A stretch of DNA of 64,000 nt from Candidatus Parcubacteria bacterium (GTDB taxonomy: Bacteria > Patescibacteriota > Patescibacteriia > Patescibacteriales > UBA12465). The position numbers and the translations under genes are program-made. How positions within the stretch are numbered: the first letter of the stretch is position 1; the number at the start of each line of letters is the position of its first letter. Positions 3 through 62,676 of this stretch are shown piece by piece. Under the pieces are notes generated by a model. The model was not told where the DNA came from. It worked only from the letters and a program-made list of their open reading frames with translations, and searched no databases. The stretch spans positions 2,000 through 65,999 of the forward strand of contig JAEZRQ010000001.1 in assembly GCA_023444045.1 (NCBI GenBank), written 5' to 3'.

Positions 3-2129
3 AAGGCCCTAGAAAAAGAGATTATTAAACCAAATGGTCTTATTCTAACTACCGGACCAACTGGGTCAGGAAAGACAACTACCCTGTATGCAATTTTAAA
101 TAAATTAAATAAACCGGGTACTAAAATAATTACCTTAGAAGACCCAATAGAATACCAACTGCCCGGGATTAACCAAAGTCAAGTTGATAACAAAAAAGGC
201 TACTCCTTCTCTGATGGACTAAGATCAATTTTAAGACAAGACCCTAATGTTTTGATGATTGGTGAGGTCAGAGACCTTGAAACCGCTGAAATTGCCGTTC
301 AATCATCTATTACTGGTCACTTAGTACTGTCAACTCTGCACACTAATGATGCTGCTGGAGTTATCCCCCGTCTGATTGACTTGGGAGTTAAGCCTTACTT
401 CCTGGTACCTTCTATTAATGCTGTTGTTGGTCAAAGATTAGTGAGAAAATTATGTCCTCACTGCCGAAAGGAGCACGAATTAAGTCTTGAAGAAAAAGAA
501 CAGGTTGATAAAATTCTAGCAGTTATTTCACCTAAGTCAGGCATTAGTATCCCACACAACCTACCAAAAATGTACCGAGCTGGTGATGGCTGCTCTCATT
601 GTAATTACACCGCTTACAAAGGACGTCTGGGTATTTATGAAATATTTACCATGGCCGACAACATTAAACAATTAACTATTGATAGAGCGCCATCTTTTAA
701 AATTTTGCAACAGGCGATAGAAAACGGCATGATTACTATGCTTCAAGATGGTATTTTAAAATGTTTTGAAGGAATAACCTCACTTGAAGAGGTCTACCGA
801 GTAGTTGGCAACTTTGATTATGTTAATGAGTTGTATGATATTGTCGTTTCACAAACAATTGGCCGCGGACTTAAAATTACTAACACAGATCTAGAAAAAG
901 CCCAGAATATTACCCAAGATATTAATGAATTATCTGAAATGGTGAAAAATATCCCGTCAAAAGAAGTGATTAACTTAATAATGTCTTTGGCTATTTCTAA
1001 AGACGCCGGTGATATCCATATTGAACCAAGTGATAAAGTTGTTAAGGTTCGCTTTAGAATTGATGGGGTTTTACATGATATTATTAATCTCCCAACCACA
1101 GTTTACCTGCCAGTATTATCAGAAATGAAAATTCTATCTGGTTTTGCTACTAATGTTAAAGTTGCTACCTTAGATGGACGCTTTAGTCTGCACTTAAGTG
1201 ACCGAAAAATGGATTGTCGTTTATCTATTATCTCGGGTGGATACGGGGAAACTATTGTTATTAGATTACTCTCTACTGCGGCAGTTAATTTAAGTATGGA
1301 AAATCTTGGTATTACTTCAACCGCTTTTAGTTCATTGCAAAATGCCATGAAAAAAACTAAAGGTATAATTATTACTACCGGACCAACTGGATCAGGAAAG
1401 ACAACCACCCTGTATGCAATTTTAAACAAACTAAATAAGCCAGATATTAAAATTATTACTATTGAGGATCCGATAGAATATCAACTGGCTGGTATAATGC
1501 AAACCCAAATTGACCCCGAACATGGCTATACCTTTGCTTCAGCCATGCGTTCTTTACTGCGTCAGAATCCCAACATTATGATGATTGGGGAAATTAGAGA
1601 TAATGAAACTGCTAAAATTGCAATTGAAGCAGCTTCAACTGGACACTTAGTACTATCAACTATTCACGCCAATAGTGCCGCGGGAGCAATTTCGCGCTTT
1701 TCTGGCTTAGGGGTTGATAGGCAATCACTAGCTAATTCCATGGAGTTTTCTATTGGACAACGGCTAGTAAGGCGCTTATGCCCCCATTGCAAAAAGATTG
1801 CTTCAATTGATAGCGAAACTCTTGACCGGGTAAAAATTATTTTAAGCCAAATAAAAAATCCAACCGTTGTTATTCCTTCAGAATTAATTTTCTTCACCAG
1901 TTTAGGTTGTGATAAGTGCGGCAATATCGGTTATAAAGGCAGAGTTGGTTTATACGAAACCATTACCGTCACACCAGATATCCAAAAATTAATAAAAGAT
2001 GAAAATATTACTGATTATGAAATTGAACAAGCAGCTATTTTAAATGGCACTGTTACCATGATAGCTGATGGCATCTTAAAAGCTTTAAATGGCGAAACTA
2101 GTTTAGATGAGGTATTTAGAGTTATCTAA
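3..2129 (+). CDS. Tandem-fused GspE/PilB-family (T2SS/type IV pilus) ATPase with two ATPase modules in one frame; 5' end lies outside the window
   Basis: Frame 3 is open from the window edge. Walker A GPTGSGKTTT occurs at nt ~50 and again at ~1381. Each is followed by a DPIEYQ Asp box, MIGE(V/I)RD Walker B, TGHLVLST(L/I)H His box and a CPHC...CxxC tetracysteine motif. Module 2 has its own N-terminal segment (GDIHIEP...RFRIDG). Confidence 0.85.
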   Translation, partial: KALEKEIIKPNGLILTTGPTGSGKTTTLYAILNKLNKPGTKIITLEDPIEYQLPGINQSQVDNKKGYSFSDGLRSILRQDPNVLMIGEVRDLETAEIAVQSSITGHLVLSTLHTNDAAGVIPRLIDLGVKPYFLVPSINAVVGQRLVRKLCPHCRKEHELSLEEKEQVDKILAVISPKSGISIPHNLPKMYRAGDGCSHCNYTAYKGRLGIYEIFTMADNIKQLTIDRAPSFKILQQAIENGMITMLQDGILKCFEGITSLEEVYRVVGNFDYVNELYDIVVSQTIGRGLKITNTDLEKAQNITQDINELSEMVKNIPSKEVINLIMSLAISKDAGDIHIEPSDKVVKVRFRIDGVLHDIINLPTTVYLPVLSEMKILSGFATNVKVATLDGRFSLHLSDRKMDCRLSIISGGYGETIVIRLLSTAAVNLSMENLGITSTAFSSLQNAMKKTKGIIITTGPTGSGKTTTLYAILNKLNKPDIKIITIEDPIEYQLAGIMQTQIDPEHGYTFASAMRSLLRQNPNIMMIGEIRDNETAKIAIEAASTGHLVLSTIHANSAAGAISRFSGLGVDRQSLANSMEFSIGQRLVRRLCPHCKKIASIDSETLDRVKIILSQIKNPTVVIPSELIFFTSLGCDKCGNIGYKGRVGLYETITVTPDIQKLIKDENITDYEIEQAAILNGTVTMIADGILKALNGETSLDEVFRVI

Positions 2130-2133
2130 AAAT

Positions 2134-2706
2134 ATGATTAATAAAAATTTTTTAAACGGTTTAAAAAAGAGCTACAGAGAACAAGAGTCGCAGAGAAGAC
2201 AAATTATTTCTTTGTCTAATGAAGTTTTGTTTCATTCTAAAAAAGCAATCTTTGCCCTACACCGCCATGATCTTAAAATTGCTGAAGAAAAATTAACGGA
2301 GATGGAGGTGGTTTTAACTAAATTAGAAAAAAAGTTTGGCGTTAAAAGAATTGAAGAAGAGGGGGCATACCGTGCTGCTACTGAGGAATATGTAGAAGCA
2401 AAATTACTAGCCGCTGTTGTTAAGGGGCAAAAGATTGATAAAATTAAAGGTTTAAAGTTAGATAATGACGCCTATTTAGGAGGAATTTGCGACCTACTAG
2501 GTGAAATGGTCAGACTAGCAACCAATGAGGCGGCGGCTGGAAAGTTTACTGAAGTAGAAAAAATAAAAAAGTTTGCTAGTGAAATAATGGATCAACTGAT
2601 TGACTTTGACATGACGGGCTATCTTAGAACCAAATATGATCAAGCCCGTGGCCATTTAAGAAAACTAGAACAGATGGCTTATGAAATAAAATTAAGAGTA
2701 AACTAA
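2134..2706 (+). CDS. Translin-family (COG2178-like) putative nucleic-acid-binding protein
   Basis: All-helical ~190 aa protein with DAYLGGICDLLGEMVRLA, resembling the translin/TRAX YLxGxxDLTGELxR signature. Start placed at ATG 2134, just after the upstream stop. Confidence 0.6.
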   Translation: MINKNFLNGLKKSYREQESQRRQIISLSNEVLFHSKKAIFALHRHDLKIAEEKLTEMEVVLTKLEKKFGVKRIEEEGAYRAATEEYVEAKLLAAVVKGQKIDKIKGLKLDNDAYLGGICDLLGEMVRLATNEAAAGKFTEVEKIKKFASEIMDQLIDFDMTGYLRTKYDQARGHLRKLEQMAYEIKLRVN

Positions 2707-3194
2707 TGAGAGTCGCCATCTTTTCTGATTTACATGATAATTTACCTAACTTAAATCTATTTTTAAATTGGGTAAATAAAAACAAGATTGATAGTCTTGT
2801 TTTTTGTGGTGACCTGGCTAGCGCCGACACCCTTAAAGAATTGGCTACTAGTTTTAAAAAAGATATTTTCATCGTCGGTGGTAATGCCGACTCTTTCTAC
2901 AAAAAGGAGGCGGCTCAGTTTAAAAATGTTACTTACCGTGAAGATAAATTAGAATTTAAGCTAGATAATAAAAAAATTATTATTACTCACAAGCCAGCCG
3001 ACCTAAAAAAATATCTATCTGAAAATAATAATTTTGATTTTGCTTTCTACGGGCACACTCATAAGCCTTGGATAAAACAAGAAGGTGGCGTGATAGTGGC
3101 TAATCCAGGAACTTTGAAAGAATATTTAGGAAGATCATCATTTGCCACTCTTGATACAAAAAATGGAAAATTAGAACTAAAAATACTTGAATAA
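2706..3194 (+). CDS. YfcE/MJ0936-family metallophosphoesterase
   Basis: Motifs SDLHDN, CGDL, GGNAD and YGHTHKPW in the canonical order for the calcineurin-like phosphoesterase fold. Confidence 0.8.
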   Translation: MRVAIFSDLHDNLPNLNLFLNWVNKNKIDSLVFCGDLASADTLKELATSFKKDIFIVGGNADSFYKKEAAQFKNVTYREDKLEFKLDNKKIIITHKPADLKKYLSENNNFDFAFYGHTHKPWIKQEGGVIVANPGTLKEYLGRSSFATLDTKNGKLELKILE

Positions 3195-3222
3195 AAAAAT
3201 AAGGCTTAAAGCCTTATTTTTT
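3193..3222. terminator. Bidirectional intrinsic terminator between convergent genes
   Basis: Hairpin taaggc-ttaaa-gcctta flanked by an A-run and a T-run. Confidence 0.7.
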
Positions 3223-5701
3223 AAACCATCTTTTTTAAATACTTACCGGTATAACTCCCTTTTATTTTAGCAATTTGAGCTGGGGTTCCGGTAGCCACAA
3301 TTTCTCCACCCTTCTCACCACCACCAGGACCCAAGTCAATTACCCAATCAACGGCTTTAATAACATCTAGGTTGTGTTCAATAATCAAAACCGTGTTTCC
3401 TTGATCAACAAGTAGATTTAGAACTTGAAGCAGACGGTCAATATCGGCAAAATGAAGCCCCGTAGTCGGCTCATCTAAAATATACAAAGTTTTACCCGTT
3501 GCTCTTCTAGATAACTCCGTAGCTAATTTAATACGCTGCGCTTCGCCGCCAGAAAAAGTTGTAGCTGCTTGACCAAGTCTAATATAACCTAAACCTACTT
3601 TATATAAAGTTTCTAGCTTATGATATAGTGCCGACTGATCTCTAAAAAAAGACATTGCTTCTTTTACGGTCATATTCAAAACTTCATAAATATTTTTTCC
3701 TTGATATTTAACAGCCAAAACATTGTGTTTAAATCTTTGCCCCTGACAAACATCACAAGTTAGGTAGATATCTGATAAAAATTGCATTTCTACTTTTATA
3801 ACCCCGTCGCCAGAACAATTTTCACAACGACCCCCAGGAACATTGAAGGAAAAATGACCAGCACTCAGTCCACGAGTTTTTGATTCCGGCAAATTGGCAT
3901 ATAAATCCCGAATATAGGTAAAGAGTCCTGTATAGGTAGCCGGGTTAGAACGAGGGGTGCGCCCAATTGGTGATTGGTCAATATCAATTACTTTATCAAT
4001 ATTTTCCAGGCCTAAAATTTCTTGATGTTTTCCTGGCTCAGTTTTAGCGCGGTAAAATTTCTTATTTAAGGCATTAGCTAAAATATCACTCATTAAAGTA
4101 GACTTTCCTGAACCAGAAACACCAGTAATCGCTACTAATTTTCCTAAAGGAATTTCAACATCAATATTTTTTAAATTGTGTTCACTAGCCTTAATTATCT
4201 TTAAAAACTTACCCGTATCTTTATGACTTAAACCACGAGCTCTAATAGTTTTGCGTCCAGAAAGATAATCACCAGTTAAAGAATCAGAACAATTCTTTAT
4301 CTCACTGGGTTCGCCAGCAAAAACAATTTCCCCACCATATTCACCCGCTCCCGGTCCAACATCAATTAAGTAATCAGCAGCTAACATAGTACTTTCGTCA
4401 TGTTCAACCACAATTACCGTATTACCATTGTCTCTAAGGTTTTTTAAAGTTTCAATTAACTTATCATTATCCCTTTGATGTAAACCAATTGATGGTTCAT
4501 CTAAAATATAAAGAACGCCACTTAAGGTTGATCCTACTTGAGTAGCCAATCTTATTCTCTGGGCTTCACCGCCTGAAAGACTGGTGGCGCTACGGGAAAG
4601 AGTTAAATAATCAAGACCGACTTTAATTAAAAAATCTAAATTTTTTAAAACTTCTTGGATGATTGGTTCAATAATAACCGACTTGCCATTAAAACATTTT
4701 TCATTAGTCTGCCAAGCGATTAAGGTTTCTTTTAATTTGTGAATATTTAAATTAGACAACTGAATAATATTCAGATTATCTATTTTCACCGCTAGAGACT
4801 CTTTAGAAAGGCGATTGCCGCCGCAACTAGAGCAATCAGATAATCTCATCGCTTTTTCAATCTCCTGCTTAACAAAATTAGACTTTGTATTGCTATGCTT
4901 TTCTGTTAAATAGCTTATTAAACCATTCCAAAAATTATCACCATGAAGTAGTGCTTTTCTTTGCTCTTTATTTAAGTCTTTAACTGCAATGTCTAAATCA
5001 AAGTTATGACGACTAGCTAATTTTCTCAGACTATCTAATAAATTAGCTTGACTGGTGGAATTAGTGTGCGCTAAAGACTTAATCGCCCCCTGATTAATAC
5101 TTAATTTTTCATTAAAAACCAGAGTCTCATCAATCTCTAGCTTATTACCGAGTCCAGCGCAATCAGGACAAGCACCATAACTAGAATTGAAAGAAAAATC
5201 CCTCGGCAGTGGTTCAGTTCTTTTAAAATCACATTTAGGACAATTATAAAAAAATATTTTATCTCTGGCTTCGGAATTTTTTTTATCTTTATTAATCGCC
5301 ACCCCCTCTTTCTTTAGTTTTAAATTGCAACAAGGGCAGTAAGAAACGCCAACCTTAGAATAAAGTAAGCGCAGATAATCATAAATTTCGGTAATTGTTC
5401 CGACTGTTGAACGAGGATTATTGCCAACAGAACGCTGATCAATAGAAATTGCCGGTGACAAGCCCTCAATAATATCCACGTCTGGTTTATCCATTAAGCC
5501 CACAAATTGACGAGCATAAGAGGAAAGGGATTCCACGTAGCGACGCTGTCCTTCGGCATAGATAGTGTCAAAAGCTAAAGAAGATTTTCCAGAACCAGAT
5601 AGACCAGTAATAACAACCAATTTGTTTCTTGGCACATCTAAGCTAACGTTTTTTAAGTTATTAGCTCTAGCCCCGCGAATTTTAATAAAATCAGCTGACA
5701 T
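3221..5701 (-). CDS. uvrA: Excinuclease ABC subunit A (short form lacking the UvrB-binding insert)
   Basis: Two ABC ATPase modules ([18 protein letters not shown]; two LSGGEAQR signatures) and zinc modules (CPCC...CPKC...CPDC, CENC...CDVC). At 826 aa it is shorter than the canonical ~940 aa. Confidence 0.9.
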
Positions 5702-32850: not shown

Positions 32851-33261
32851 ATGAAAAAAAATAAGAAAGTTTATTTTGCCCTACTACTTGCTTCTTTGCT
32901 CTTATTTATTGGTTTAAAAACTAGTTTAGCTACCAGTATAGTAGACACCAGTAACCCGGATTACAAAACCGGTAATTATGATCTCTCAGATGTTGGTAAT
33001 TATGCTATTTATATTATTGAATTAATCTTGAGTTTAGTTGGCACCTTGTCACTGATCGCCTTTATTTACGGTGGGGTAACCTTTTTAATATCAGCTGGTA
33101 GCTCTGATAAAGTTAAGAAGGGGATGGATATTATTAAGGCAGCTGTTGTGGGTCTAATAATAACATTTTCCAGTGTTTTAATTATGAATCTATTCTTTAG
33201 CGGCCTTGGGGTTTCCTGGAACCCCAACACGGGAGCAGTTTCTAGTAGTCCAAAAAAATGA
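32851..33261 (+). CDS. VirB2/TrbC-like two-TM pilin paralog (distal copy)
   Basis: Signal peptide, variable region, TM1, loop SAGSSDKVKKGMDIIKAAVVGL, TM2. This is the same architecture as the 35345-37804 array, though the loop here diverges from the WMTAxGN motif of the array. Confidence 0.6.
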   Translation: MKKNKKVYFALLLASLLLFIGLKTSLATSIVDTSNPDYKTGNYDLSDVGNYAIYIIELILSLVGTLSLIAFIYGGVTFLISAGSSDKVKKGMDIIKAAVVGLIITFSSVLIMNLFFSGLGVSWNPNTGAVSSSPKK

Positions 33262-35344: not shown

Positions 35345-35728
35345 ATGAAAAAAATTGCTAAACACTTGCTATCTTTATTCGTTTTAACTTTGGTTTTTGT
35401 GCCAGCTCTAAGTATGGCTGCCCTTGACACCACAAAGGTGGGAATCACTGGTGCAGACGGTATTGAAGGAAAGATAGACCTAGGAAAGAAAACACCAGTA
35501 GAAACAGCTACCAGCTTAATCAACTTTGGTATGACTTTCTTGGCTTTAATCGCGGTGGTAATCGTTATTGCCGCTGGCTTCAAATGGATGACTGCTGGAG
35601 GAAGTGATGAAAAGATTACTGAAGCAAAAAAGTTAATGACCGCCGGCGTTGTTGGTATTGTTATTATTCTTTCTGCTTGGGGTATCGCTAGATATGTACT
35701 CGAAAAACTTGTTACCGTTACTGCTTAA
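35345..35728 (+). CDS. VirB2/TrbC-like two-TM pilin paralog 1 (candidate major subunit)
   Basis: Signal peptide ...ALSMAA, variable region, TM1, GFKWMTAGGSDEKITEAKK loop, TM2. It has its own promoter (TTGTCT-17-TGcTAAAAT) and a strong SD (GGGTGGTG). Confidence 0.75.
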   Translation: MKKIAKHLLSLFVLTLVFVPALSMAALDTTKVGITGADGIEGKIDLGKKTPVETATSLINFGMTFLALIAVVIVIAAGFKWMTAGGSDEKITEAKKLMTAGVVGIVIILSAWGIARYVLEKLVTVTA

Positions 35729-35827
35729 TATTTTTTCGAAAATCGATTTTAGAAAAAAGTGGCCCTCATTTATTTAATGGGGGTTACCGCTTTGGAGCCA
35801 AAGTATTGGCTTCAGAGCAGTAAATAT

Positions 35828-36220
35828 ATGAAATCAATCAAAACTTTAATTTTATCTTTTTTAATTAGCCTTCCTCTATTGGGAGCCAATTTTGCTTTAG
35901 CTACTGTCACCGCCCCCCTAGATGGGTTGAAGGAAACTGGTGGGCAAATACCGGCTTATAATAGTCAAACGGGCGACACCAGAACAGCCAGAGAGTCTGT
36001 GCTTGATAAAATTGGCGGTATTGTTGGCTTAATTCTATCATTTTTAGGTGTTATCTTTTTAGGATTAACTGTCTTTGCTGGTTTCCTGTGGATGACAGCC
36101 CAAGGGAATAACGCCAAGGTAGAACGGGCTAAAGACTTACTAATTAATGCTGTTATTGGCTTAATAATAATTGTGGCCGCCTATTCAATTACCCTATTTA
36201 TTGGACGAGAATTAACATAG
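35828..36220 (+). CDS. VirB2/TrbC-like pilin paralog 2
   Basis: Same architecture, with loop GFLWMTAQGNNAKVERAKD. Start moved to ATG 35828 (MKSIKTL signal peptide). Confidence 0.72.
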   Translation: MKSIKTLILSFLISLPLLGANFALATVTAPLDGLKETGGQIPAYNSQTGDTRTARESVLDKIGGIVGLILSFLGVIFLGLTVFAGFLWMTAQGNNAKVERAKDLLINAVIGLIIIVAAYSITLFIGRELT

Positions 36221-36223
36221 TTT

Positions 36224-36586
36224 ATGAAAAAACGCTTTTTTTTACTAGTTTTATTAGGAATTATTTTTTTTAGTAACTCAATTCAAGCTGCTTCATATAA
36301 TTTTGAAATAGACAGTGGGGCGGCTCAAATAGCTAATAAAGCTCAGCTAAGTCAACAAAGCCCTGAGTTTTATGTTGGCTTAATTCTGGGTATTTTTTTC
36401 TCAATTATTGGTCTAATTTTTCTGGTTTTAATTATCCTTTCTGGTGTTAAGTGGATGACTGCCCAAGGTAATTCTGGTAGAGTTGATCAGGCTAAAGATA
36501 CTATTACTAAAGCAATTACCGGATTAGTAATAACACTGGCTTCATATGGAATAACGATGTTTATTCTTAATTTTGTTTTTAAATAA
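36224..36586 (+). CDS. VirB2/TrbC-like pilin paralog 3
   Basis: Loop GVKWMTAQGNSGRVDQAKD. 3-nt gap to the upstream gene. Confidence 0.72.
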   Translation: MKKRFFLLVLLGIIFFSNSIQAASYNFEIDSGAAQIANKAQLSQQSPEFYVGLILGIFFSIIGLIFLVLIILSGVKWMTAQGNSGRVDQAKDTITKAITGLVITLASYGITMFILNFVFK

Positions 36587-36973
36587 ATGCTAACTAAAAT
36601 TAAACAAATTAAATATCTACTTTTAGCCTTTTGTTTATTATTTGTACCAAAGTTATCTTCTGCGGTTGGCCTTGATGATGCTTTTTCAAACCCAGACAGC
36701 TCTAATCTTGGGGTTTTTACTAAAAGTGCTAATATACCCGCTCAAGGAGACTTAGAGTTTTATATTGGTACTATCTTAACAGCCCTTTTTTCAATTTTAG
36801 GAGTTATTTCAATCGCTTTACTAATATACAGTGGTTATATCTGGATGACAGCTCGTGGCAACGAATCTAAGGTGACCGAGGCTAAAGAAAATATTTCTAA
36901 TATTTTGATTGGTCTTATATTTATAATTGGTAGTTATGCCTTAACTACCTTCCTACTAAAAATATTCTTCTAA
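36587..36973 (+). CDS. VirB2/TrbC-like pilin paralog 4
   Basis: Loop GYIWMTARGNESKVTEAKE. 0-nt gap to the upstream gene. Confidence 0.72.
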   Translation: MLTKIKQIKYLLLAFCLLFVPKLSSAVGLDDAFSNPDSSNLGVFTKSANIPAQGDLEFYIGTILTALFSILGVISIALLIYSGYIWMTARGNESKVTEAKENISNILIGLIFIIGSYALTTFLLKIFF

Positions 36974-36977
36974 TTTT

Positions 36978-37388
36978 ATGGTTAAAAAATTAAAATCTTG
37001 GCTAAACATCGTTTTTCTAACAGTAATTTTAATTGTTCCTGGATTAGTTTTCGCAACCAGTATTAAAAATGCAGAAGATAATGGTGGTGCTATAGATAGA
37101 TTAAATAAAACCGCTACCACCTACGGACCATTTTCAAAAGTAGCTGATGAAACAACTTTAGCTACTACCTTGGGCTTGGTGATTGGTATTGCTCTTAGTA
37201 TCTTAGGTATCATCTTCCTTGTAATTACAATTATTTCTGGCTTTAAGTGGATGACAGCCGAAGGTAATGAAAGTAAAGTGGAACAAGCTAGGGGCACTAT
37301 TACTAGGGCTGTGATTGGTTTAATTGTAGTCATTTCTTCTTATGCTATTTGGATCTTTATCAGAAATAACTTTATTGAAAAAATATGA
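36978..37388 (+). CDS. VirB2/TrbC-like pilin paralog 5
   Basis: Loop GFKWMTAEGNESKVEQARG. Confidence 0.72.
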   Translation: MVKKLKSWLNIVFLTVILIVPGLVFATSIKNAEDNGGAIDRLNKTATTYGPFSKVADETTLATTLGLVIGIALSILGIIFLVITIISGFKWMTAEGNESKVEQARGTITRAVIGLIVVISSYAIWIFIRNNFIEKI

Positions 37389-37804
37389 TGATTTTAAAAA
37401 GAATTAAGGCACTATTATTTAGTTTAATTGGGCTATTTGCTTCCGCTTCCTATGCTTTCGCGACTGGTCTTAAAACAGATGATCTAAAAAAACAAGACGA
37501 TGCCATTGCTGGAGCGGCTGGTTTAGCTGGTAATAGCAACTTAGCTAATGTTATCTCTATTTTAATCTCAGTGATTCTAGGATTTTTAGGTATAGTATTT
37601 CTGGTTTTAACTATTATGGCTGGATTTAAGTGGATGATGTCACAAGGTAACGAAGATGAAATTAAAAAAGCTAAGGGGTCACTTAAAAATTCTATTATTG
37701 GCTTAGTTATTGTATTAGCTGCCTACGCAATCACTTATTCTATCTTCAGATATTTACCATTTTCTAGTAACTCTACTGGTGGAGGTGGTGGAACGGGTTT
37801 ATAA
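37385..37804 (+). CDS. VirB2/TrbC-like pilin paralog 6 (Gly-rich C-terminal tail)
   Basis: Loop GFKWMMSQGNEDEIKKAKG. ATGA overlap with paralog 5. C-terminus is STGGGGGTGL. Confidence 0.72.
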   Translation: MMILKRIKALLFSLIGLFASASYAFATGLKTDDLKKQDDAIAGAAGLAGNSNLANVISILISVILGFLGIVFLVLTIMAGFKWMMSQGNEDEIKKAKGSLKNSIIGLVIVLAAYAITYSIFRYLPFSSNSTGGGGGTGL

Positions 37805-50739: not shown

Positions 50740-52146
50740 ATGTCTTACGATCAAATTTGGCAGGCCGCTTTAGGCGAAATAGAAGTTAATCTATCGCGGG
50801 CTAATTTTATTACTTGGTTTAAAAATACTTTTGTGTCCTTGGTTGAAAATGGCCAGGTAACTGTTTGTGTTCCAAACTCTTTTATCCAAAAATGGCTTGA
50901 AGAAAAATATCACAAGACAATTTTAAGCGCCCTAGAAAATGTTTTAAAACAAAAAGTAATTATTGTTTATAAAGTAGAAGTTAGAAACAACGGCAACCAA
51001 ACAATTATTAACGATAAAAATAGTCACTTAGTTGGCTCATTAAAAGAGAAGTCTCTTACTCCAGAAAATAATAGCAGAGTGGAAGAAAAAAATAACCAAC
51101 CAATTAAGGGGAGTGAAAATAAATTTGGTTTAAATTCTAAGTATGTTTTTGAAAATTTTATTGTAGGAAAAAACAATGAGCTAGCTTATGCCGCCTGTTG
51201 GGCAGTGGTTAATAATTTAGGAAAGGCTTATAACCCTTTATTTATTTATGGTGGGGTAGGGCTAGGAAAAACTCACTTACTACAAGCCATAGGTAATGAG
51301 GTGTCAAAAAAAACTGATCGTATTCTTTATACCACCTCTGAAAAATTTACTAATAATTATATTCAGGCTGTACACTCCGGAAAAGCAAAAGAGTTTAAAA
51401 ATCTTTATCGCAATGTTGATCTCTTTTTAATTGACGATGTTCAATTCATGGGTGGAAAAGATGGTACTCAACAAGAATTTTTTCATACTTTTAACGAACT
51501 ACAACAAGGAGACAAGCAGATTGTCCTAACTTCTGACAGACCACCAAAATCTCTCCCCGCTATTGAGGCTCGTCTAATTTCTCGTTTTGAGTCTGGTATG
51601 GTAGCTGACGTTGGTAAACCGGATATGGAAACCAAAATTGCTATTTTAGAAAAAAAATCAATTGAAAAAGGTTTTCCGTTAAGTTCTGAAATAATAAACC
51701 TACTTGCTAAAAGCGTCCAAAATAATATTAGGGAGCTTGAAGGTGTTTTAAATAAAATTATTGCCGTACACCAAATTAAAAACATCCCCGTAAGCGAGAG
51801 AAGTGTTAAAGAAATTCTGTCTGATTTTATTGCTAATACCCAAACAAAATCTTTGTCTAATAAAGAGGTTATTGATGCTGTTTGTCGTTTTTATGATATT
51901 AGCTCTAAAGATTTAATCGGTAACAGCCGCAAAAAAGAGCTTGTTTGGCCAAGACAAATTGCTATTTATTTAATGAGGGAAGAAGTTAAATCATCCTATC
52001 CTAATATTGGTCATGAAATAGGGGGCAGGGATCACACCACCGCGATGCATGCTTACAATAAAGTTAGCCGAGAAATAAATGAGAATGAAAATGAAAAAAT
52101 AAAACAAGAGTTGGTTTCTATTAAACAACTATTTAACAGTTTATAA
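50740..52146 (+). CDS. dnaA: Chromosomal replication initiator DnaA
   Basis: AAA+ GGVGLGKTHLLQA, LIDDVQF, domain IV (RKKELVWPRQIAIYLMRE...GGRDHTTAMHA). Confidence 0.95.
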   Translation: MSYDQIWQAALGEIEVNLSRANFITWFKNTFVSLVENGQVTVCVPNSFIQKWLEEKYHKTILSALENVLKQKVIIVYKVEVRNNGNQTIINDKNSHLVGSLKEKSLTPENNSRVEEKNNQPIKGSENKFGLNSKYVFENFIVGKNNELAYAACWAVVNNLGKAYNPLFIYGGVGLGKTHLLQAIGNEVSKKTDRILYTTSEKFTNNYIQAVHSGKAKEFKNLYRNVDLFLIDDVQFMGGKDGTQQEFFHTFNELQQGDKQIVLTSDRPPKSLPAIEARLISRFESGMVADVGKPDMETKIAILEKKSIEKGFPLSSEIINLLAKSVQNNIRELEGVLNKIIAVHQIKNIPVSERSVKEILSDFIANTQTKSLSNKEVIDAVCRFYDISSKDLIGNSRKKELVWPRQIAIYLMREEVKSSYPNIGHEIGGRDHTTAMHAYNKVSREINENENEKIKQELVSIKQLFNSL

Positions 52147-52394
52147 CTTGTTAATAAGTAGTTAATAACTAATGAGATCCTGTTAATTAAATTGTGTATT
52201 AAACCTTAAACCTTTGTTAATAAAAAAAGTTGTTAACTTTTAAAACACTTTTACCACACAGCAATTTAAGATTTAATCAACAGAAAAAAATCGGTATTAT
52301 TTTTTAGAGTAAGCCAAAAAATAGCAATAACAATAACTTATACACCCCCTTATTATTGTTATTATTTATATAAATATATATTAAATAATATAAT
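52147..52394. other. Candidate oriC (dnaA-dnaN intergenic region)
   Basis: Five same-orientation (T/A)GTTAAYWW motifs at 52149, 52160, 52181, 52215 and 52231. Their reverse complement, e.g. TTATTAACA, matches the DnaA-box consensus TTATCCACA at up to 7 of 9 positions. A ~55-bp almost pure A/T tract follows at 52340-52394. Confidence 0.55.
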
Positions 52395-53522
52395 ATGAAA
52401 TTAATTAGTGTTCAGGAAAATTTAAAAAAGGGACTACTGACTGTAAGTCATGGAACTGGTAAAAATATTAACTTACCAATTCTTAATAATATTTTAATAA
52501 AGGCTTATAACAACTCTATTGAGCTTATTAGCACTAATTTAGAAATCGGCATTATTTATAAATTAAGAGGTAAGGTTGAAAGAGAGGGTGAATTTACGGT
52601 TGATTCAAAAATTATTACCGAATATGTTAATTTGCTTCCAAGTGAAAACGTGGAGATAGAAGAAATAGGCGGTGAACTTAAAGTAGAGTGTGGTACTTAT
52701 AAAACAAAAATTAAAGGAGAGGCATCAAAAGAGTTCCCTCTTATACCATCAGTTTCTCAAGAAAATTGTTATTCTTGTTCAATAGTTGAATTTAGAAAAG
52801 CTTTAAATAGTGTTTCTTTTGCAGTTTCAAATAGTGAAAATAGGATTGAGTTATCAGGAGTTTTATTTAATTTTGAGGATGAAAAATTAACTCTAGTTGC
52901 AACTGATAGTTATCGTTTAGCTGAAAAAACTATTAATACTAAAACAGAGAATAGTTTTATTAATCAAAAGTTAATTGTCCCCTCTAGAACTGTTCAAGAA
53001 CTTTTAAGAATTTTAAATAATTATAATAATGAGGATGGTGATTTTGAACAAAAAAGTGATGTTAAAATAGCTGTTTCTGATAATCAAATTTTGTTTTTAG
53101 TTGATTCTGTGGAACTTGTTTCCAGATTAATTAATGGTCAATACCCAGATTATCAACAAATTATTCCTGATAAAAGTAAAACAGAGGTGGTGGTAAGTAA
53201 GGCAAACCTTCTAAGAGCAGTAAAAGCGGTAGCAATTTTCTCTAAAACAGGAATTAATGACGTTAACTTAGAATTTAAAGATAATAAGATTATAATATCT
53301 GCTTCATCTGGACAGAGCGGAGAAAGTAGGGCGGACATTGAAGCGGATATTAGTGGCATTGATAATGAAATAGCAATTAACTTCCGGTACTTAGTTGATG
53401 GTTTAAATAATATTAATGCTGATAAAGTACGTTTAAAAATTGTTAGTACTAACACCCCTTGTATTTTAGTGGCCGAACCACAAGATGAATATCTTTATGT
53501 TGTAATGCCAATTAGGCAATAA
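52395..53522 (+). CDS. dnaN: DNA polymerase III beta sliding clamp
   Basis: Three-domain 375-aa protein (LVATDSYRLA, RLINGQYPDYQQIIP, MPIRQ C-terminus) and synteny. Confidence 0.93.
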   Translation: MKLISVQENLKKGLLTVSHGTGKNINLPILNNILIKAYNNSIELISTNLEIGIIYKLRGKVEREGEFTVDSKIITEYVNLLPSENVEIEEIGGELKVECGTYKTKIKGEASKEFPLIPSVSQENCYSCSIVEFRKALNSVSFAVSNSENRIELSGVLFNFEDEKLTLVATDSYRLAEKTINTKTENSFINQKLIVPSRTVQELLRILNNYNNEDGDFEQKSDVKIAVSDNQILFLVDSVELVSRLINGQYPDYQQIIPDKSKTEVVVSKANLLRAVKAVAIFSKTGINDVNLEFKDNKIIISASSGQSGESRADIEADISGIDNEIAINFRYLVDGLNNINADKVRLKIVSTNTPCILVAEPQDEYLYVVMPIRQ

Positions 53523-56803: not shown

Positions 56804-56875
56804 GCGCCCATAGTTCAATGGATAGAACACCAGCCTTCTAAGCTGGTTATGGGGGTTCGATTCCCTCTGGGCGTA
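56804..56875 (+). tRNA. tRNA-Arg (anticodon UCU)
   Basis: Acceptor GCGCCCA/TGGGCGT, anticodon loop CTTCTAA, T arm GGGGGTTCGATTCCCTC. Confidence 0.9.
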
Positions 56876-56896
56876 CTTATAATTAATTTTAATTTT

Positions 56897-57034
56897 ATGG
56901 AAAATAATAATGATAAGCCGTTAACTGAGGAAGAAATTGCTCAGATGGATGCTTTATTTGGCTTTGGTGGTTGTAATTGCAGTACCTGTGATCATGGTTG
57001 TCATGACGAGGCTGAAGAAGGAGAAGACAAATAA
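56897..57034 (+). CDS. Possible 45-aa acidic Cys/His-rich peptide
   Basis: MENNNDKPLTEEEIAQMDALFGFGGCNCSTCDHGCHDEAEEGEDK. The track ORF start at 56849 overlaps tRNA-Arg, so the internal ATG is used. No SD is seen. Confidence 0.3.
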   Translation: MENNNDKPLTEEEIAQMDALFGFGGCNCSTCDHGCHDEAEEGEDK

Positions 57035-57054
57035 TCAGAATATTTTAGAATAAT

Positions 57055-57129
57055 GGTGCCTATGGTGTAGTGGTAACACAGCAGGTTGTGGTCCTGTTAT
57101 TTCGGGTTCGATTCCCGATAGGCACCCCA
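57055..57129 (+). tRNA. tRNA-His (anticodon GUG) with encoded G-1 and CCA
   Basis: G-1 followed by GTGCCTA/TAGGCAC, C73, CCA; anticodon loop TTGTGGT. A terminator hairpin acgag-tttaaaag-ctcgt plus T-run follows at ~57139-57163. Confidence 0.92.
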
Positions 57130-58574
57130 TTTTGAAAAGACGAGTTTAAAAGCTCGTTTTTTCTGTTATATAAGGGTAAAAATGAGGTTTGCCAGTCTAA
57201 ATTTACCCCTGACGGGAATATTTTGATAGTTTTTATCATTTTTTTAATAAGATTAGCCTTATTTTCGTGGTTTGCCACTTTATAGGCATAAGCGGGATTT
57301 GATAGTAGTTTTGTAAGCTCCTCAATTTTACTAAATGAGGTTTCGTTAGTCCTTTGAAAGTCTTTTATTTGAGAATCAAGGGCACTCTTTTCAAGAATAA
57401 ATTGCTTCTTTTTTTCTTCATAAACATCTTTATCAATCGTTCCTTCTAAAAGATGGTCAGTTAGCTTGCTTAATTTATCATTACAACTAATCACTCTAAG
57501 ATTTAAACTCTGATTCATTTTTTCAAGCTCAAAGACATAAGATTTTTTTAAGTCTTTAGCAATTTTTAATAGTTGGGCGGTTTCTTCTTTATCAAATTTA
57601 ATTTTATCAATTTCATTTAATAATATATCTTCAACTGTGTTCTCAGAGTAGCTTTTTGCTCCACAAGCTTTATTGCGACAATAGTAATATGGATATTTGT
57701 GTTTAGCGGTCATTGATTTTAATGTTTGTCCACATAAACCACAAGTTAAGATGTGTTTAAATTTATAATCGTTTTTATGAGTATGAGGAGTAAATCTTCT
57801 TTGTAAAACATCTTGAACTTTTTTGAATAATTTATCAGAAACAATTGCGGGATGTAGTCCAATATTAAGTTTGCCTTTTATGTCAATGATGCCCATATAG
57901 TATTTATCATTTAAGATTCTACTGATTTTTGTATACTCAATTCTTTTGTTGTTATAGGTTCTCAGACCCTTCTTATACATTTCATCAGCTAGCTCATGAA
58001 GAGTGTATTTACCAGTAGCATATAAATCAAAACATTTTTTAATTAAAGGTGCTGTTATTGGGTCAAGTTCTCTCATGCCAATTCCAGATTTTTTATATCC
58101 TAATAAAACTCTTCCAAAAACTGTATAACCAAGCTCTGCTTTTTTGTTCATACCCTTTTTAGTCTCCTGTGATAAATTAGCAATAAAATCTTCAGCCATT
58201 ACAGCTTTCATAGTACAGGTTAATGAGCCACCTCTACTGTTTAAGTCTGAACCATCACGACTAAAACAAATATTATAACCAGCATTTGATAGCTCTTTTA
58301 TTTTTGCCCAGTCGCTAATAGATCGGCAAGATCTATCTACGTCGTGAAAAATTATTCCCTTAACGCTTTTTGATTTTTTAATTTCCACTAGCATTAAACC
58401 GAACTGCTTTCGACCTTTTTTAGCAGCACTTTGTACTTCACGGAATTCTTTTACAATTTGAAACCCTCTTTCTTTTGCAAATTTTTGATTTGCTTCTTGT
58501 TGAGCTTCAAGGGAAGCCCCTGTTTCTGCTTGGTTTAGAGACGAAACTCTGTAATAGCTATAATATTTATCCAT
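57060..58574 (-). CDS. Large serine recombinase (integrase)
   Basis: N-terminal resolvase domain (YYRVSSLNQ catalytic Ser, HDVDRSCRS), recombinase domain, zinc ribbon (CGLCGQTL...YYYCRNKAC) and coiled coil. The last ~23 codons are antisense to tRNA-His. Confidence 0.85.
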   Translation of the reverse strand: MDKYYSYYRVSSLNQAETGASLEAQQEANQKFAKERGFQIVKEFREVQSAAKKGRKQFGLMLVEIKKSKSVKGIIFHDVDRSCRSISDWAKIKELSNAGYNICFSRDGSDLNSRGGSLTCTMKAVMAEDFIANLSQETKKGMNKKAELGYTVFGRVLLGYKKSGIGMRELDPITAPLIKKCFDLYATGKYTLHELADEMYKKGLRTYNNKRIEYTKISRILNDKYYMGIIDIKGKLNIGLHPAIVSDKLFKKVQDVLQRRFTPHTHKNDYKFKHILTCGLCGQTLKSMTAKHKYPYYYCRNKACGAKSYSENTVEDILLNEIDKIKFDKEETAQLLKIAKDLKKSYVFELEKMNQSLNLRVISCNDKLSKLTDHLLEGTIDKDVYEEKKKQFILEKSALDSQIKDFQRTNETSFSKIEELTKLLSNPAYAYKVANHENKANLIKKMIKTIKIFPSGVNLDWQTSFLPLYNRKNELLNSSFQNGVPIGNRTRNNRTTTCCVTTTP

Positions 58575-58643
58575 ATATTTATAGGTGATTAAATAGGGAT
58601 TTATTTATCATATTTTAATTAGATTAATGACTACCTTAAAAAG

Positions 58644-59387
58644 CTATCGTAAAATCAACTCAACCGCTGACTGATATCTTTCACCCTTGTAAGAGATTAG
58701 ACCCTTTTTATAAATTGGATTACTTAAAATCTTTTTAATTGTTGATGGACTCCACTTCTCGTTTCCTCTCTTAGTCGGGATACTTAAATCCGTTAAAGTA
58801 TTAGCAATTATTTTTAGGGACTTCTTTTTTCTTTTTAGATTAAATATCAACATAATCGTTTTAGCTTCTTGTTGGTTAATTACTAAGTTGCCCTCATTGT
58901 TGTCATAACCATAAATTTTACCACCATGCCAACCACCATTTTTAGCCTTTCTTTCTCTACCACCTTCAAGTCTTAAAGCGATCATTGCTCTTTCAAATTC
59001 AGAGAATACACCAAGCATTTGTCTAAACGCCTTTCTGAAAGGATCGCTACTGTCTAAATCAGGCTCAAGAGCTGAAATTAATTGCTTCTCATTTTTATTA
59101 AACTCTTTTATCAAACCCTCTTGAATATATAAATCTCTTGCTAACCTATCTAACTTATAGATGATTATATGTTCCGCTTCTGTGTTGTTTAATAAATCAA
59201 GAAGATTTTTTAATCCTGGTCTATCGCTTAATCCACCACTGAACCCATCATCTGAAAATTCTTCAATAATCAGGTATTCATTTTTGATAGCAAATTCTCT
59301 GACCTTCATTTTTTGAACTTCAATTGTTCCTTCTTCTTTTTGAAGATCAGTTGATACACGATAATAGGCAAGTGCTTTTTTTGTCAT
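58644..59387 (-). CDS. Serine recombinase, short form (resolvase domain plus partial recombinase domain, no zinc ribbon)
   Basis: YYRVSTDLQ catalytic Ser, YKLDRLARD, FSEFERAMIALRLEGG, then WSPSTIKKILSNPIYKG, a recombinase-domain motif. Confidence 0.8.
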   Translation of the reverse strand: MTKKALAYYRVSTDLQKEEGTIEVQKMKVREFAIKNEYLIIEEFSDDGFSGGLSDRPGLKNLLDLLNNTEAEHIIIYKLDRLARDLYIQEGLIKEFNKNEKQLISALEPDLDSSDPFRKAFRQMLGVFSEFERAMIALRLEGGRERKAKNGGWHGGKIYGYDNNEGNLVINQQEAKTIMLIFNLKRKKKSLKIIANTLTDLSIPTKRGNEKWSPSTIKKILSNPIYKKGLISYKGERYQSAVELILR

Positions 59388-59540
59388 AGATTTTTGATTA
59401 GGGATGATTAGAAATGCTTATAATATAAGACGCAAATCAAAAAATCTAAATGTCTCAATAATAAATCGTGTAGCTATACAGGAAAAATATACGTGGTAAT
59501 TCTGTTTTTTAGTTTTTTATAACCCTTATATATTAAAAAT

Positions 59541-60930: not shown

Positions 60931-60939
60931 AGGTTTTGC

Positions 60940-62387: not shown

Positions 62388-62388
62388 A

Positions 62389-62658: not shown

Positions 62659-62676
62659 AGTTTTATTAAATTTATT

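What the first reader, a model, noticed from the sequence alone, without database searches (positions are those of the whole stretch)
3..2129. Two complete GspE/PilB ATPase modules fused in one reading frame
A single uninterrupted frame carries two full ATPase modules. Each has Walker A, Asp box, Walker B, His box and a tetracysteine zinc motif. Module 1 lies at roughly nt 3-820 and continues upstream of the window; module 2 (nt ~830-2129) has its own N1-like domain. All catalytic motifs are intact in both. The P-loop regions (nt 41-90 versus 1378-1427) are ~96% identical at the nucleotide level, while flanking sequence is much more diverged. This argues for duplication followed by local gene conversion. 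These ATPases work as homohexamers, so a covalent dimer would form a trimer of dimers with built-in two-fold asymmetry. I do not know of this being described as a standard architecture for T4P/T2SS motors.
Basis: partly seen in the sequence, partly recalled or inferred. Interest (0 to 1): 0.6.

Follow-up and report, generated by a model that had tools for sequence, protein, structure and literature searches.

The report
Natural tandem-fused PilB-type motor ATPase
This ultra-small (Patescibacteria) bacterium encodes, as one conserved protein, two complete copies of the ATPase that normally works as a six-subunit pilus-assembly motor, so three chains could build the ring; the gene is real and widespread but I found no paper describing it, and it lies away from the pilus genes.

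Summary
Window 3-2129(+) is one stop-free frame holding the C-terminal ATPase domain of module 1, a 50-residue junction, and a complete second N2+ATPase core. Both modules have Walker A, Asp box, Walker B, His box and four Cys.

It is not an assembly artefact. More than 230 protein clusters of about 1000 aa from independent assemblies share the architecture, including 0.9 Mb contigs. Named sources are Falkowbacteria, Moranbacteria, Buchananbacteria and Parcubacteria. dN/dS is about 0.01 across both modules and the junction.

The full protein (1004 aa) is N1-N2-CTD-junction-N2-CTD. Module 1 keeps every canonical PilB position. Module 2 is the derived copy, changed mostly in its N2 domain.

One unexpected result: the gene is not the pilC-linked pilus PilB. 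It descends from a separate, pilC-unlinked PilB-like paralog. In most other Patescibacteria clades sampled, that paralog sits in a TsaE-DHH-X-RuvB-YebC-RuvC block.

A trimer of tandem dimers forming a pseudo-hexamer is the most likely assembly, but it is untested. I found no literature description. Verdict: new variant of a known kind.

The parts
3..803 (+). C-terminal ATPase domain (CTD) of module 1. The gene starts about 888 nt upstream of the window; N1 and N2 of module 1 are missing here.
   Evidence: Pfam T2SSE stretch 1. Corresponds to residues 297-563 of the 1004-aa ortholog P0001, 97% identical. Residues 30-561 of P0001 align to full-length M. xanthus PilB 3jc8.
54..80 (+). Walker A (GPTGSGKTT), module 1
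   Evidence: Invariant in 144 fused homologs.
138..155 (+). Asp box (EDPIEY), module 1
252..275 (+). Walker B (LMIGEVRD), module 1
312..347 (+). His box (TGHLVLSTLHTN), module 1
453..602 (+). Tetracysteine motif of module 1 (CPHC at 453-464, CSHC at 591-602)
   Evidence: All four Cys are invariant in 144 fused homologs.
804..953 (+). Inter-module junction: a conserved helix (NFDYVNELYDIVVSQTIGRGL, nt 810-872) followed by a variable ~30-residue stretch that is a copy of the N1-N2 linker
   Evidence: Conservation in 119 and 144 homologs, with G565 invariant and Y574 near-invariant. Helix 569-581 in the AlphaFold model. hhalign of residues 143-172 vs 585-614 gives E 6e-5. dN/dS 0.011.
954..1319 (+). 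N2 domain of module 2 (RFRIDG at 1050-1067, LDGRF at 1170-1184)
   Evidence: Pfam T2SSE stretch 2 starts at residue 318. Residues 618-1001 of P0001 align to the T. thermophilus PilF N2D+CTD construct 5oiu. 5 of the 10 departures from canonical PilB conservation fall here.
1320..2126 (+). ATPase domain (CTD) of module 2: Walker A 1380-1406, Asp box 1464-1481, Walker B 1578-1601, His box 1638-1673, CPHC 1779-1790, CDKC 1908-1919
   Evidence: Foldseek TM 0.93 to PilB 5tsh and PilF 5oiu.
2127..2129 (+). Stop codon TAA
48..100 (+). P-loop tract, module 1 copy of a recent intragenic gene-conversion tract
   Evidence: 2/53 nt differences from 1374-1426 against 9/53 from its ortholog in L001. 0 of 2000 synonymous-codon resamplings give <=2. 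Same-codon use is 17/22 here vs 46/116 elsewhere, p=0.002.
1374..1426 (+). P-loop tract, module 2 copy of the conversion tract
2134..2706 (+). Translin-family gene, 4-14 nt downstream and co-directional (probable operon partner in this clade only)
   Evidence: Pfam PF01997, E 3e-20. Same position in L001-L006.
2706..3194 (+). YfcE-family metallophosphodiesterase gene, abutting the Translin gene (context)
   Evidence: Pfam Metallophos_2. TIGR00040 yfcE scores 84.8 bits against a cut-off of 56.

Best explanation
The frame is the 3' 70% of a ~1004-residue Patescibacteria protein. A complete PilB/GspE-class assembly ATPase (N1, N2, CTD) is followed in the same chain by a short conserved junction and a second N2+CTD core.

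Shown:
- The fusion is real, old, widespread and under strong purifying selection along its whole length.
- Both modules keep every catalytic and zinc-binding motif.
- Module 1 is canonical. Module 2 is the derived copy, with changes concentrated in its N2 domain.
- The gene descends from a pilC-unlinked PilB-like paralog of Patescibacteria, not from the pilB-pilT-pilC pilus locus.
- In this lineage a 53-nt P-loop tract was recently homogenised by gene conversion.

Inferred:
- Three chains assemble into one six-module ring (a pseudo-hexamer) with alternating m1 and m2 positions and only three N1 domains.
- Both kinds of site hydrolyse ATP.
- The two non-equivalent N2 domains could each be tuned to one of the two non-equivalent cytoplasmic domains of a trimeric, internally duplicated platform protein, following the 3:6 PulF:PulE model.
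- The machine it drives is most likely a type IV filament or DNA-uptake apparatus whose other parts are encoded elsewhere. This last step is the weakest.
For: Continuity and motifs.

Conservation of the architecture:
- At least 120 clusters of 1002-1005 aa at 74-97% identity.
- 110 further hits of about 1000 aa at 37-50% identity from Moranbacteria, Buchananbacteria and Parcubacteria.
- About 13 representatives at the 50% identity level.
- Independent assemblers and samples, including contigs of 911 kb and 922 kb.

Selection: dN/dS 0.007-0.015 in every segment, junction included.

Motifs: invariant in both modules across 144 homologs.

Fold: each module matches PilB/PilF N2D+CTD at TM 0.93. 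No solved chain spans both modules.

Asymmetry: of 94 positions conserved in 77 single PilBs, 84 are kept in both modules. All 10 departures are in module 2, 5 of them in its N2 domain.

Origin:
- Fused genes and single-module 'Type B' genes share the TsaE-DHH-X-RuvB-YebC-RuvC block and lack pilC.
- The pilC-linked PilB clade excludes them (bootstrap 98).

Gene conversion.

Platform analogy: in the PulF model a trimer forms a ring of alternating Cyto1/Cyto2 domains, each binding one N2D of hexameric PulE (PMC10790770). The platform protein is itself an ancient internal duplication (PMC6668835).
Against: - No oligomeric state was measured or modelled. The AlphaFold monomer gives pTM 0.48, so the relative position of the modules is not predicted.
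- No platform, PilM, prepilin peptidase or pilin gene lies within 8-10 kb in any of the 13 fused loci or the window.
- I could not show that a genome carrying the fusion also carries a pilC or a canonical pilB.
- Monophyly of module 2 is weakly supported (bootstrap 29-61), so 'one old fusion' is not secure.
- The apparently independent fusions (P0127, P0129) and the triple (P0271) each rest on a single contig.
Confidence: 0.55

Rival explanations
1. Stacked double ring. Six chains assemble with the six m1 modules in one ring and the six m2 modules in a second, coaxial ring, as in KaiC, p97/NSF or EccC. Only one ring would engage a membrane partner.
For: Tandem RecA-like/ASCE ATPase duplications elsewhere commonly give stacked rings (established knowledge of KaiC and type II AAA+ proteins). 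The ~50-residue junction with its own helix could act as an inter-ring connector. Module 2 has diverged at N2D positions that are conserved in single PilBs, as expected if only one ring keeps the canonical partner contacts.
Against: In solved PilB/PilT/GspE hexamers the ring is held together by N2D-CTD contacts between neighbouring subunits (PDB 5tsh, 6olj, 4ksr; my own knowledge of McCallum et al. 2017). An N2D-CTD-N2D-CTD chain fits naturally within a single ring. No stacked PilT-like ring appears among the PDB matches. A triple-module relative (P0271) divides six evenly (2 x 3), which fits an in-ring arrangement.
Confidence: 0.17
2. Catalytic/regulatory pair. The ring is a trimer of dimers, but only one module (m1) turns over ATP productively. 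The other (m2) binds nucleotide as a structural or regulatory site, as in the alpha and beta subunits of F1-ATPase.
For: All departures from canonical conservation are in m2, including D376N in the RQDPD motif and loss of Q244 and P265 in N2D. m2 evolves faster (mean pairwise identity 0.43 vs 0.49). A distant tandem relative (P0137) has lost the Walker A lysine in one module.
Against: In the family that contains the window, the Walker A Lys, Asp-box Glu, Walker B Glu, both His and the N2D arginines are invariant or nearly so in m2 across 144 sequences. dN/dS of m2 is as low as that of m1.
Confidence: 0.12
3. Not a pilus motor. The pilC-unlinked PilB-like lineage, tandem forms included, powers something other than type IV filament assembly, for example a DNA-related translocation step linked to the recombination genes it sits beside.
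For: The block TsaE(-) DHH(+) PilB-like(+) RuvB(+) [bPH_2] YebC(+) RuvC(+) recurs in Saccharibacteria-, Parcubacteria- and Doudnabacteria-labelled genomes, and pilC is absent from it. The fused gene is 5 nt upstream of ruvC in L010 and 26 nt downstream of the DHH gene in L012. In the window's clade it is followed by Translin and a phosphodiesterase.
Against: The protein has every hallmark of GspE/PilB assembly ATPases, including the N1/GSPII domain and the tetracysteine motif. Type IV pilus genes are often scattered over several loci (PMC6668835). In TM7x a bona fide pilus locus also carries recAX (PMC11623550), so proximity to recombination genes does not exclude a pilus or competence role. 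Some pilC-linked loci also lie near TsaE and RuvB (L040, L052), which suggests inherited gene order rather than function.
Confidence: 0.15
4. Artefact. Two adjacent genes were joined by a sequencing or assembly error, or a tandem repeat was mis-assembled.
For: The window is truncated at its 5' end, and no reads were available for this sample.
Against: The same uninterrupted ~1004-codon gene occurs in more than 230 clusters from NCBI, ENA, JGI and Logan assemblies made with different assemblers. The modules are only 53% identical, so they cannot collapse in assembly. The junction is conserved and under purifying selection.
Confidence: 0.01

Closest known systems
PilB type IVa pilus assembly ATPase (G. 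metallireducens 5TSH/6OLJ, M. xanthus 3JC8)
   Same: N1/GSPII + N2D + CTD organisation of the first 565 residues. Walker A, Asp box, Walker B, His box and tetracysteine motif. E 1e-100 and TM 0.93.
   Different: A second N2D+CTD core in the same chain. Not encoded beside pilC/pilT. Lies outside the pilC-linked Patescibacteria PilB clade.
Thermus thermophilus PilF (5OIU, 6F8L)
   Same: An elongated PilB-type ATPase with repeated domains. Module 2 aligns to its N2D+CTD at E 3e-85.
   Different: PilF repeats the N-terminal GSPII domains and has one ATPase core (my own knowledge of the 6F8L construct). Here the ATPase core itself is repeated.
Single-module pilC-unlinked PilB-like paralog of Patescibacteria ('Type B' here; e.g. 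L013, L029, L045)
   Same: Closest sequence relatives, at 43-49% identity. Same TsaE-DHH-X-RuvB-YebC-RuvC neighbourhood. L013 shares the upstream membrane protein.
   Different: One module of 431-570 aa; some lack N1. As far as I could find, this paralog is itself uncharacterised.
Platform protein PilC/GspF (PulF trimer model, PMC10790770)
   Same: An internally duplicated chain. In that model three copies form a ring of six alternating, non-equivalent domains that matches the six N2Ds of the ATPase.
   Different: A membrane protein, not an ATPase. This is an architectural analogy only.
Tandem-ATPase chains KaiC and p97/NSF; alternating-paralog rings F1 alpha3beta3 and Pex1/Pex6
   Same: Two P-loop ATPase modules per functional unit, giving built-in asymmetry.
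   Different: Different families. KaiC and p97 stack their two rings. F1 and Pex1/6 use separate chains. These comparisons come from memory and were not tested here.
Engineered GspE-Hcp1 fusions (4KSR/4KSS)
   Same: A covalent fusion used to enforce ring assembly of a GspE-type ATPase (listed).
   Different: Artificial. The fusion partner is a hexameric scaffold, not a second ATPase.

Membership tests
GspE/PilB-class assembly ATPases (Pfam T2SSE PF00437; PilT/VirB11-like superfamily) | T2SSE domain (N2D + RecA-like CTD) above Pfam's gathering score | tested here: met
   653.6 bits vs a cut-off of 24.9, two stretches in the window. 758 bits, stretches 172-562 and ~614-1002 in P0001.
GspE/PilB-class assembly ATPases (Pfam T2SSE PF00437; PilT/VirB11-like superfamily) | Walker A, Asp box, Walker B and His box intact | tested here: met
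   Present in both modules. Invariant or near-invariant in 144 homologs.
GspE/PilB-class assembly ATPases (Pfam T2SSE PF00437; PilT/VirB11-like superfamily) | Tetracysteine (zinc) motif that separates GspE/PilB from PilT | tested here: met
   CxxC...CxxC in both modules. All eight Cys are invariant. The PilT genes of Patescibacteria loci lack the motif.
GspE/PilB-class assembly ATPases (Pfam T2SSE PF00437; PilT/VirB11-like superfamily) | N-terminal N1/GSPII (MshEN, PF05157) domain | tested here: met
   One per chain, upstream of the window. P0001 residues 30-170 align to the PilB N-terminus. PF05157 is on record for orthologs. Module 2 has none.
GspE/PilB-class assembly ATPases (Pfam T2SSE PF00437; PilT/VirB11-like superfamily) | PilB fold | tested here: met
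   AlphaFold model pLDDT 84. TM 0.89-0.93 to 5tsh, 5oiu and 5it5.
GspE/PilB-class assembly ATPases (Pfam T2SSE PF00437; PilT/VirB11-like superfamily) | NCBIfam equivalog score for PilB (TIGR02538) or GspE (TIGR02533) | tested here: inconclusive
   868 and 896 bits exceed the cut-offs of 676 and 630, but only because two modules add up. Neither model separates PilB from GspE here.
GspE/PilB-class assembly ATPases (Pfam T2SSE PF00437; PilT/VirB11-like superfamily) | Assembles as a six-site ring | not testable with these tools
   Only a monomer model was possible, and its pTM of 0.48 leaves the inter-module geometry open.
Type IV pilus / T2SS machinery component | Genetic linkage to a platform protein (PilC/GspF), PilM/N/O, PilT or pilins | tested here: not met
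   None within 8-10 kb in the window or in 13 fused loci from six clades. By contrast 42 of 52 non-Patescibacteria PilB loci and 15 Patescibacteria 'Type A' loci have PilC adjacent.
Type IV pilus / T2SS machinery component | Co-occurrence with a T4P gene set in the same genome | not tested
The Type A search returned no protein from a fused-gene contig.
Canonical Patescibacteria pilus PilB (pilB-pilT-pilC loci) | Falls inside the clade of pilC-linked Patescibacteria PilBs | tested here: not met
   The Type A clade has bootstrap 98 and excludes every fused module and every Type B single.
PilT/PilU retraction ATPases | ~350 aa, no N1 domain, no tetracysteine motif | tested here: not met
   Both modules carry the Cys motif. 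PilT sequences form the outgroup in the tree. PDB PilT matches are far weaker (E 1e-33 vs 1e-100).

The most novel reading that the evidence does not exclude
The tandem ATPase and its single-module relatives could define an unrecognised Patescibacteria-wide machine that is distinct from the known type IV pili. The motor would be a PilB-derived ring encoded in the TsaE-DHH-X-RuvB-YebC-RuvC block. It would work with partners that are not PilC (for example the conserved polytopic membrane protein upstream in this clade), perhaps in DNA or nucleotide acquisition. Repeated covalent duplication (x2 arising two or three times, x3 once) would then be a route to a built-in three-fold or two-fold asymmetric ring.
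Probability: 0.15. Interest if true: 0.85.

Novelty: new variant of a known kind. Interest (0 to 1): 0.6.

Why it matters
PilB/GspE/PilT motors are homohexamers, and their working symmetry (C2, C3 or C6), the order of site firing and their stoichiometry with the platform protein are still debated.

A natural covalent dimer fixes the register of two non-identical protomers around the ring. One class of site, or one class of N2 domain, can then be mutated without touching the other. That is hard to do with a homohexamer.

The architecture also mirrors the internally duplicated platform protein. If that protein is a trimer with six alternating cytoplasmic domains, it predicts exactly this 3 x 2 match.

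Patescibacteria are episymbionts. Their pili and DNA-uptake systems are central to attachment and nutrient acquisition. A conserved extra PilB-like motor outside the known pilus loci is therefore an uncharted part of that biology.

Tried and rejected
41-90 vs 1378-1427 gave 7/50 matches. The true register is 48-100 vs 1374-1426.
- **Genome-contig scan with the full alignment.** It gave no census of the fusion, but it did reveal the two locus types.
- **Third homolog search with pilC-linked Patescibacteria PilBs.** The aim was to find one on a contig that also carries the fusion. Only Staskawiczbacteria has both types, and that is at taxon level.
- **afdb50 fold search.** The library was not available.
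- **AlphaFold monomer.** The domains are confident but pTM is 0.48, so there is no information on ring geometry.
- **hhalign of the junction helix against the last N1 helix.** Only the following 30-residue linker aligned (E 6e-5). Homology of the helix itself is not supported.
- **c-di-GMP-binding MshEN motif in N1.** Not seen by eye in the P0001 N-terminus. No formal test was run.
- **Upstream 328-aa membrane protein.** No Pfam or NCBIfam family.
- **Neighbouring genes as functional clues.** UvrA, a cardiolipin-synthase-like PLD, GH3, TsaD and YchF are housekeeping genes and were not taken as evidence.
- **Literature.** Six full-text searches and six papers read or searched. None describes a tandem PilB, including a 2024 PilB review and the 2019 TFF-superfamily survey.
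Full report
**1. The observation**

Translating window 3-2200 in frame gives 708 sense codons ending at TAA 2127-2129, with no internal stop. Pfam T2SSE (PF00437) matches in two stretches at E 9e-197.

Both halves carry GPTGSGKTT (Walker A), EDPIEY (Asp box), [LM]MIGE[VI]RD (Walker B), TGHLVLST[LI]H[TA]N (His box) and two CxxC pairs. Coordinates are in the parts list. The two ATPase domains are 53% identical in protein and 60% in DNA.

41-90 vs 1378-1427 gives 7/50 matches. The true pair is 48-100 vs 1374-1426, with 2 differences in 53 nt.

**2. Not an artefact**

A search of 5.8 billion proteins returned at least 120 clusters of 1002-1005 aa. They are 74-97% identical to the query and cover all of it. 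Sources that name them call them GspE/PulE family protein or PilB, from Candidatus Falkowbacteria or the Patescibacteria group.

The best hit, P0001, is 97% identical and 1004 aa. It occurs on contigs from ENA, Logan and NCBI, the longest 309 kb.

A profile of more distant members found another 110 hits of about 1000 aa at 37-50% identity. These come from Moranbacteria, Buchananbacteria and Parcubacteria, and include records deposited under 2015-2016-style names (GW2011, RIFOXY). A library clustered at 50% identity holds about 13 full-length fused representatives.

Between the window and its ortholog in L001, DNA identity is 86% and third-position identity 65%, while protein identity is 97%. 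dN/dS is 0.015 in m1 CTD, 0.011 in the junction, 0.007 in m2 N2D and 0.015 in m2 CTD.

**3. Anatomy of the full protein**

Residues 30-561 of P0001 align to nearly the whole of M. xanthus PilB (3jc8). Residues 618-1001 align to the N2D+CTD construct of T. thermophilus PilF. Pfam places the T2SSE stretches at 172-562 and about 614-1002. The chain is therefore N1(GSPII)-N2D-CTD-junction-N2D-CTD.

The window starts at residue 297, inside module 1, just upstream of the Walker A motif.

The junction has two parts. First comes a conserved helix (GNFDYVNELYDIVVSQTIGRGL), with G565 invariant and Y574 near-invariant. A variable stretch of about 30 residues follows. That stretch is a copy of the N1-N2 linker of module 1 (hhalign E 6e-5).

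Module 2 therefore has its own N2 domain and linker, but no N1 domain, contrary to the finding.

The AlphaFold2 model built on 144 sequences has mean pLDDT 84, and both modules are well folded. Its pTM is 0.48, so it says nothing about how the modules sit relative to each other. Foldseek matches each module to PilB/PilF at TM up to 0.93. No PDB chain covers both modules (TM normalised to the query is at most 0.37).

**4. Are both modules functional?**

Across 144 fused proteins the following are invariant or at least 90% conserved in both modules:
- the Walker A Lys;
- the Asp-box Glu residues;
- the Walker B Gly-Glu-x-Arg;
- both His-box histidines;
- the N2D RxRxDG and DGR motifs;
- all eight Cys.

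I compared the modules with 77 single-module PilBs. Of 94 positions that are at least 85% conserved in the singles, 84 are kept in both modules. All 10 departures are in module 2, and five are in its N2 domain (A184, S190G, Q244, G246, P265). Another is D376N in the RQDPD motif.

Module 2 also evolves somewhat faster (mean pairwise identity 0.43 vs 0.49). Module 1 is therefore canonical. Module 2 is derived but keeps its catalytic residues.

**5. Gene conversion**

In the window the P-loop tracts differ by 2/53 nt. Each tract differs from its own ortholog in L001 by 9-10/53, and the L001 paralogous tracts differ by 8/53.

Resampling synonymous codons from the gene's own usage never gave 2 or fewer differences in any 53-nt window (0 of 2000; mean minimum 9.4).

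Among identical residues, the same codon is used in 17/22 cases in the P-loop against 46/116 elsewhere (p=0.002). Three orthologs show no such excess.

A short intragenic conversion tract, arising after the split from the L001 lineage, is the simplest reading.

**6. History of the duplication**

In neighbour-joining trees, 14 of 16 fused representatives place module 2 in one clade, apart from module 1. Support is weak (bootstrap 61, 29).

Two proteins behave differently. The modules of P0129 (73% identical to each other) and of P0127 (55%) pair with each other at bootstrap 100 and 99-100. Each pair nests inside a different subclade of single-module relatives (bootstrap 99 and 86). Both lack the conserved junction motif. 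This points to independent duplications.

P0271 (1460 aa) has three modules that are 47-59% identical, and both of its junctions carry the motif.

P0127, P0129 and P0271 are each known from a single contig, so they need confirmation.

**7. Genomic context and which PilB this is**

No pilC, pilT, pilM or pilin gene lies near the gene in the window or in any of 13 fused loci.

In the window's clade the order is:
- TyrRS, ArgRS and GlyRS on the minus strand;
- a 326-329-aa polytopic membrane protein with no family match;
- the fused ATPase;
- Translin;
- a YfcE-type phosphodiesterase;
- UvrA on the minus strand;
- a PLD/cardiolipin-synthase-like gene.

In Moranbacteria-type clades the order is TsaE(-), DHH, fused ATPase, RuvB, a small ORF, bPH_2, then YebC and RuvC. 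In L010 ruvC starts 5 nt after the ATPase gene.

I screened their ORFs with profiles built from the fetched loci. They fall into two types:

| | Type A | Type B |
|---|---|---|
| Loci | 15 | 11 |
| Gene order | pilB(-pilT)-pilC | single PilB-like gene (431-570 aa) in the TsaE/DHH/RuvB/YebC/RuvC block |
| pilC within 10 kb | yes | no |
| Identity to the fused query | 33-40% | 43-49% |

The remaining two of the 28 are the fused locus L015 and the short contig L024, which had no marker genes.

In the tree, Type A forms a clade (bootstrap 98) that excludes all fused modules and all Type B singles. L013, a Type B single, groups with the window clade's module 1 (bootstrap 73). It also has the same membrane protein immediately upstream (E 9e-21).

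The fused gene is therefore the tandem form of a pilC-unlinked PilB-like paralog.

Staskawiczbacteria-labelled genomes have both Type A (P0422, P0476) and Type B (L045) genes, which suggests the two types coexist. I could not show coexistence within one genome that carries the fusion.

For comparison, cultivated Saccharibacterium TM7x is described with two pilus systems, PilB1/PilC1 and PilB2/PilC2. The second locus also carries recAX (PMC11623550). So linkage of pilus genes to recombination genes has a precedent. Some Type A loci also lie near TsaE and RuvB (L040, L052).

**8. Mechanism**

Shown: a single chain with two complete PilB cores that look catalytically competent, one N1 domain and a constrained junction.

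Inferred: three chains form a six-module ring with alternating m1 and m2. The reasoning has two parts.
- Known PilB/GspE/PilT rings have six sites, and their N2D and CTD domains contact across neighbouring subunits (PDB entries; my knowledge of McCallum et al. 2017 and 2019).
- A ~50-residue tether from the C-terminus of one core to the N2D of the next is ample to link neighbouring positions in a ring.

Such a ring would carry three N1 domains rather than six, and two classes of N2D.

The PulF work models the platform as a trimer whose Cyto1 and Cyto2 domains alternate in a ring, each binding one N2D of the hexameric ATPase (PMC10790770). A tandem ATPase would let each N2D specialise for one Cyto domain. 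The concentration of module-2 changes in its N2D fits this idea but does not prove it.

The rivals are a stacked double ring, a catalytic/regulatory pair and a non-pilus function. They are listed with their tests in the rival explanations.

**9. Comparison with what is known**

The protein meets the sequence, motif and fold criteria of GspE/PilB-class assembly ATPases. It fails the genetic-linkage criterion of a T4P/T2SS component, and it is not a member of the pilC-linked Patescibacteria PilB clade.

I found no description of a natural tandem PilB/GspE/PilT in any of the following:
- full-text searches;
- the TFF-superfamily survey;
- a 2026 archaeal TFF preprint, which states that no ATPase fusion or fission was seen in archaea;
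- a 2024 PilB review;
- a CPR protein-family study that lumps PilB and PilT into one family.

The search library is incomplete, so absence from it is not proof.

**10. Verdict**

This is a new variant of a known kind: abundant in databases under a generic name, and unrecognised as an architecture in the literature I could search. Interest 0.6.

Noticed in passing
related loci L007-L009, L011-L015, L023, L025, L026, L028, L029, L031, L034, L035, L045: A gene block TsaE(-) DHH(+) PilB-like(+) RuvB(+) [bPH_2] YebC(+) RuvC(+) recurs in genomes labelled Saccharibacteria, Parcubacteria (Nealson-, Staskawicz-, Wildermuthbacteria), Doudnabacteria and Moranbacteria. pilC is absent from it and no ruvA was noted. 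Why a PilB-like ATPase is kept beside the Holliday-junction genes is unexplained.
   Followed up: partly
L001:9000-9986 (just upstream of the window's 5' end); also L003:7017-7997, L005:4914-5903, L013:8972-9988: A 326-329-aa polytopic membrane protein with no Pfam or NCBIfam match lies 3-15 nt upstream of the ATPase gene. It is present throughout the window's clade and also upstream of the single-module relative in L013 (E 9e-21). It is a candidate partner.
   Followed up: partly
L009:8001-12383 (protein P0271): A 1460-aa relative has three complete N2D+CTD modules (Walker A at residues 313, 760 and 1210) that are 47-59% identical to one another. Both junctions carry the conserved motif. It is known from one JGI contig only.
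   Followed up: partly
protein P0137 (1047 aa, one contig): A distant tandem relative whose first module has lost the Walker A lysine (GPTGSGTTT). By eye its N-terminus resembles a PilC/T2SSF-like domain. It may be a tandem with one degenerate module.
   Followed up: no
window 35345-37804 (and 32851-33261): Five ORFs of 120-139 aa in this stretch each match Pfam T4SS_pilin (PF18895, E 2e-7 to 4e-11); a sixth ORF between them (35759-36220) was not scanned. A weaker match lies at 32851-33261. This is a paralog array of VirB2/TrbC-like pilins, unrelated to the PilB-type ATPase.
   Followed up: partly
window 56804-64000: tRNA-Arg and tRNA-His (56804-57129) are followed by two serine recombinases (57060-58574, 58644-59387), an AAA_25/KaiC-like ATPase (59541-60722) and a drop in G+C to 27%. 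This looks like an integrated mobile element at a tRNA gene. The large recombinase ORF overlaps the tRNA-His call.
   Followed up: partly
window 50740-53522: By the N-terminal sequences of their products, these ORFs look like dnaA (50740-52146) and dnaN (52395-53522), with rnpA- and yidC-like ORFs upstream on the other strand. The window would then span the chromosomal replication origin region. The cumulative GC-skew profile was not examined for a turning point.
   Followed up: no
window 3221-5701 (-): The UvrA gene is short (826 aa). It passes the UvrA equivalog cut-off, but its best stretch (residues 135-825) aligns to model positions 234-940 of 943, so about 100 residues of the canonical N-terminal part are missing.
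   Followed up: no
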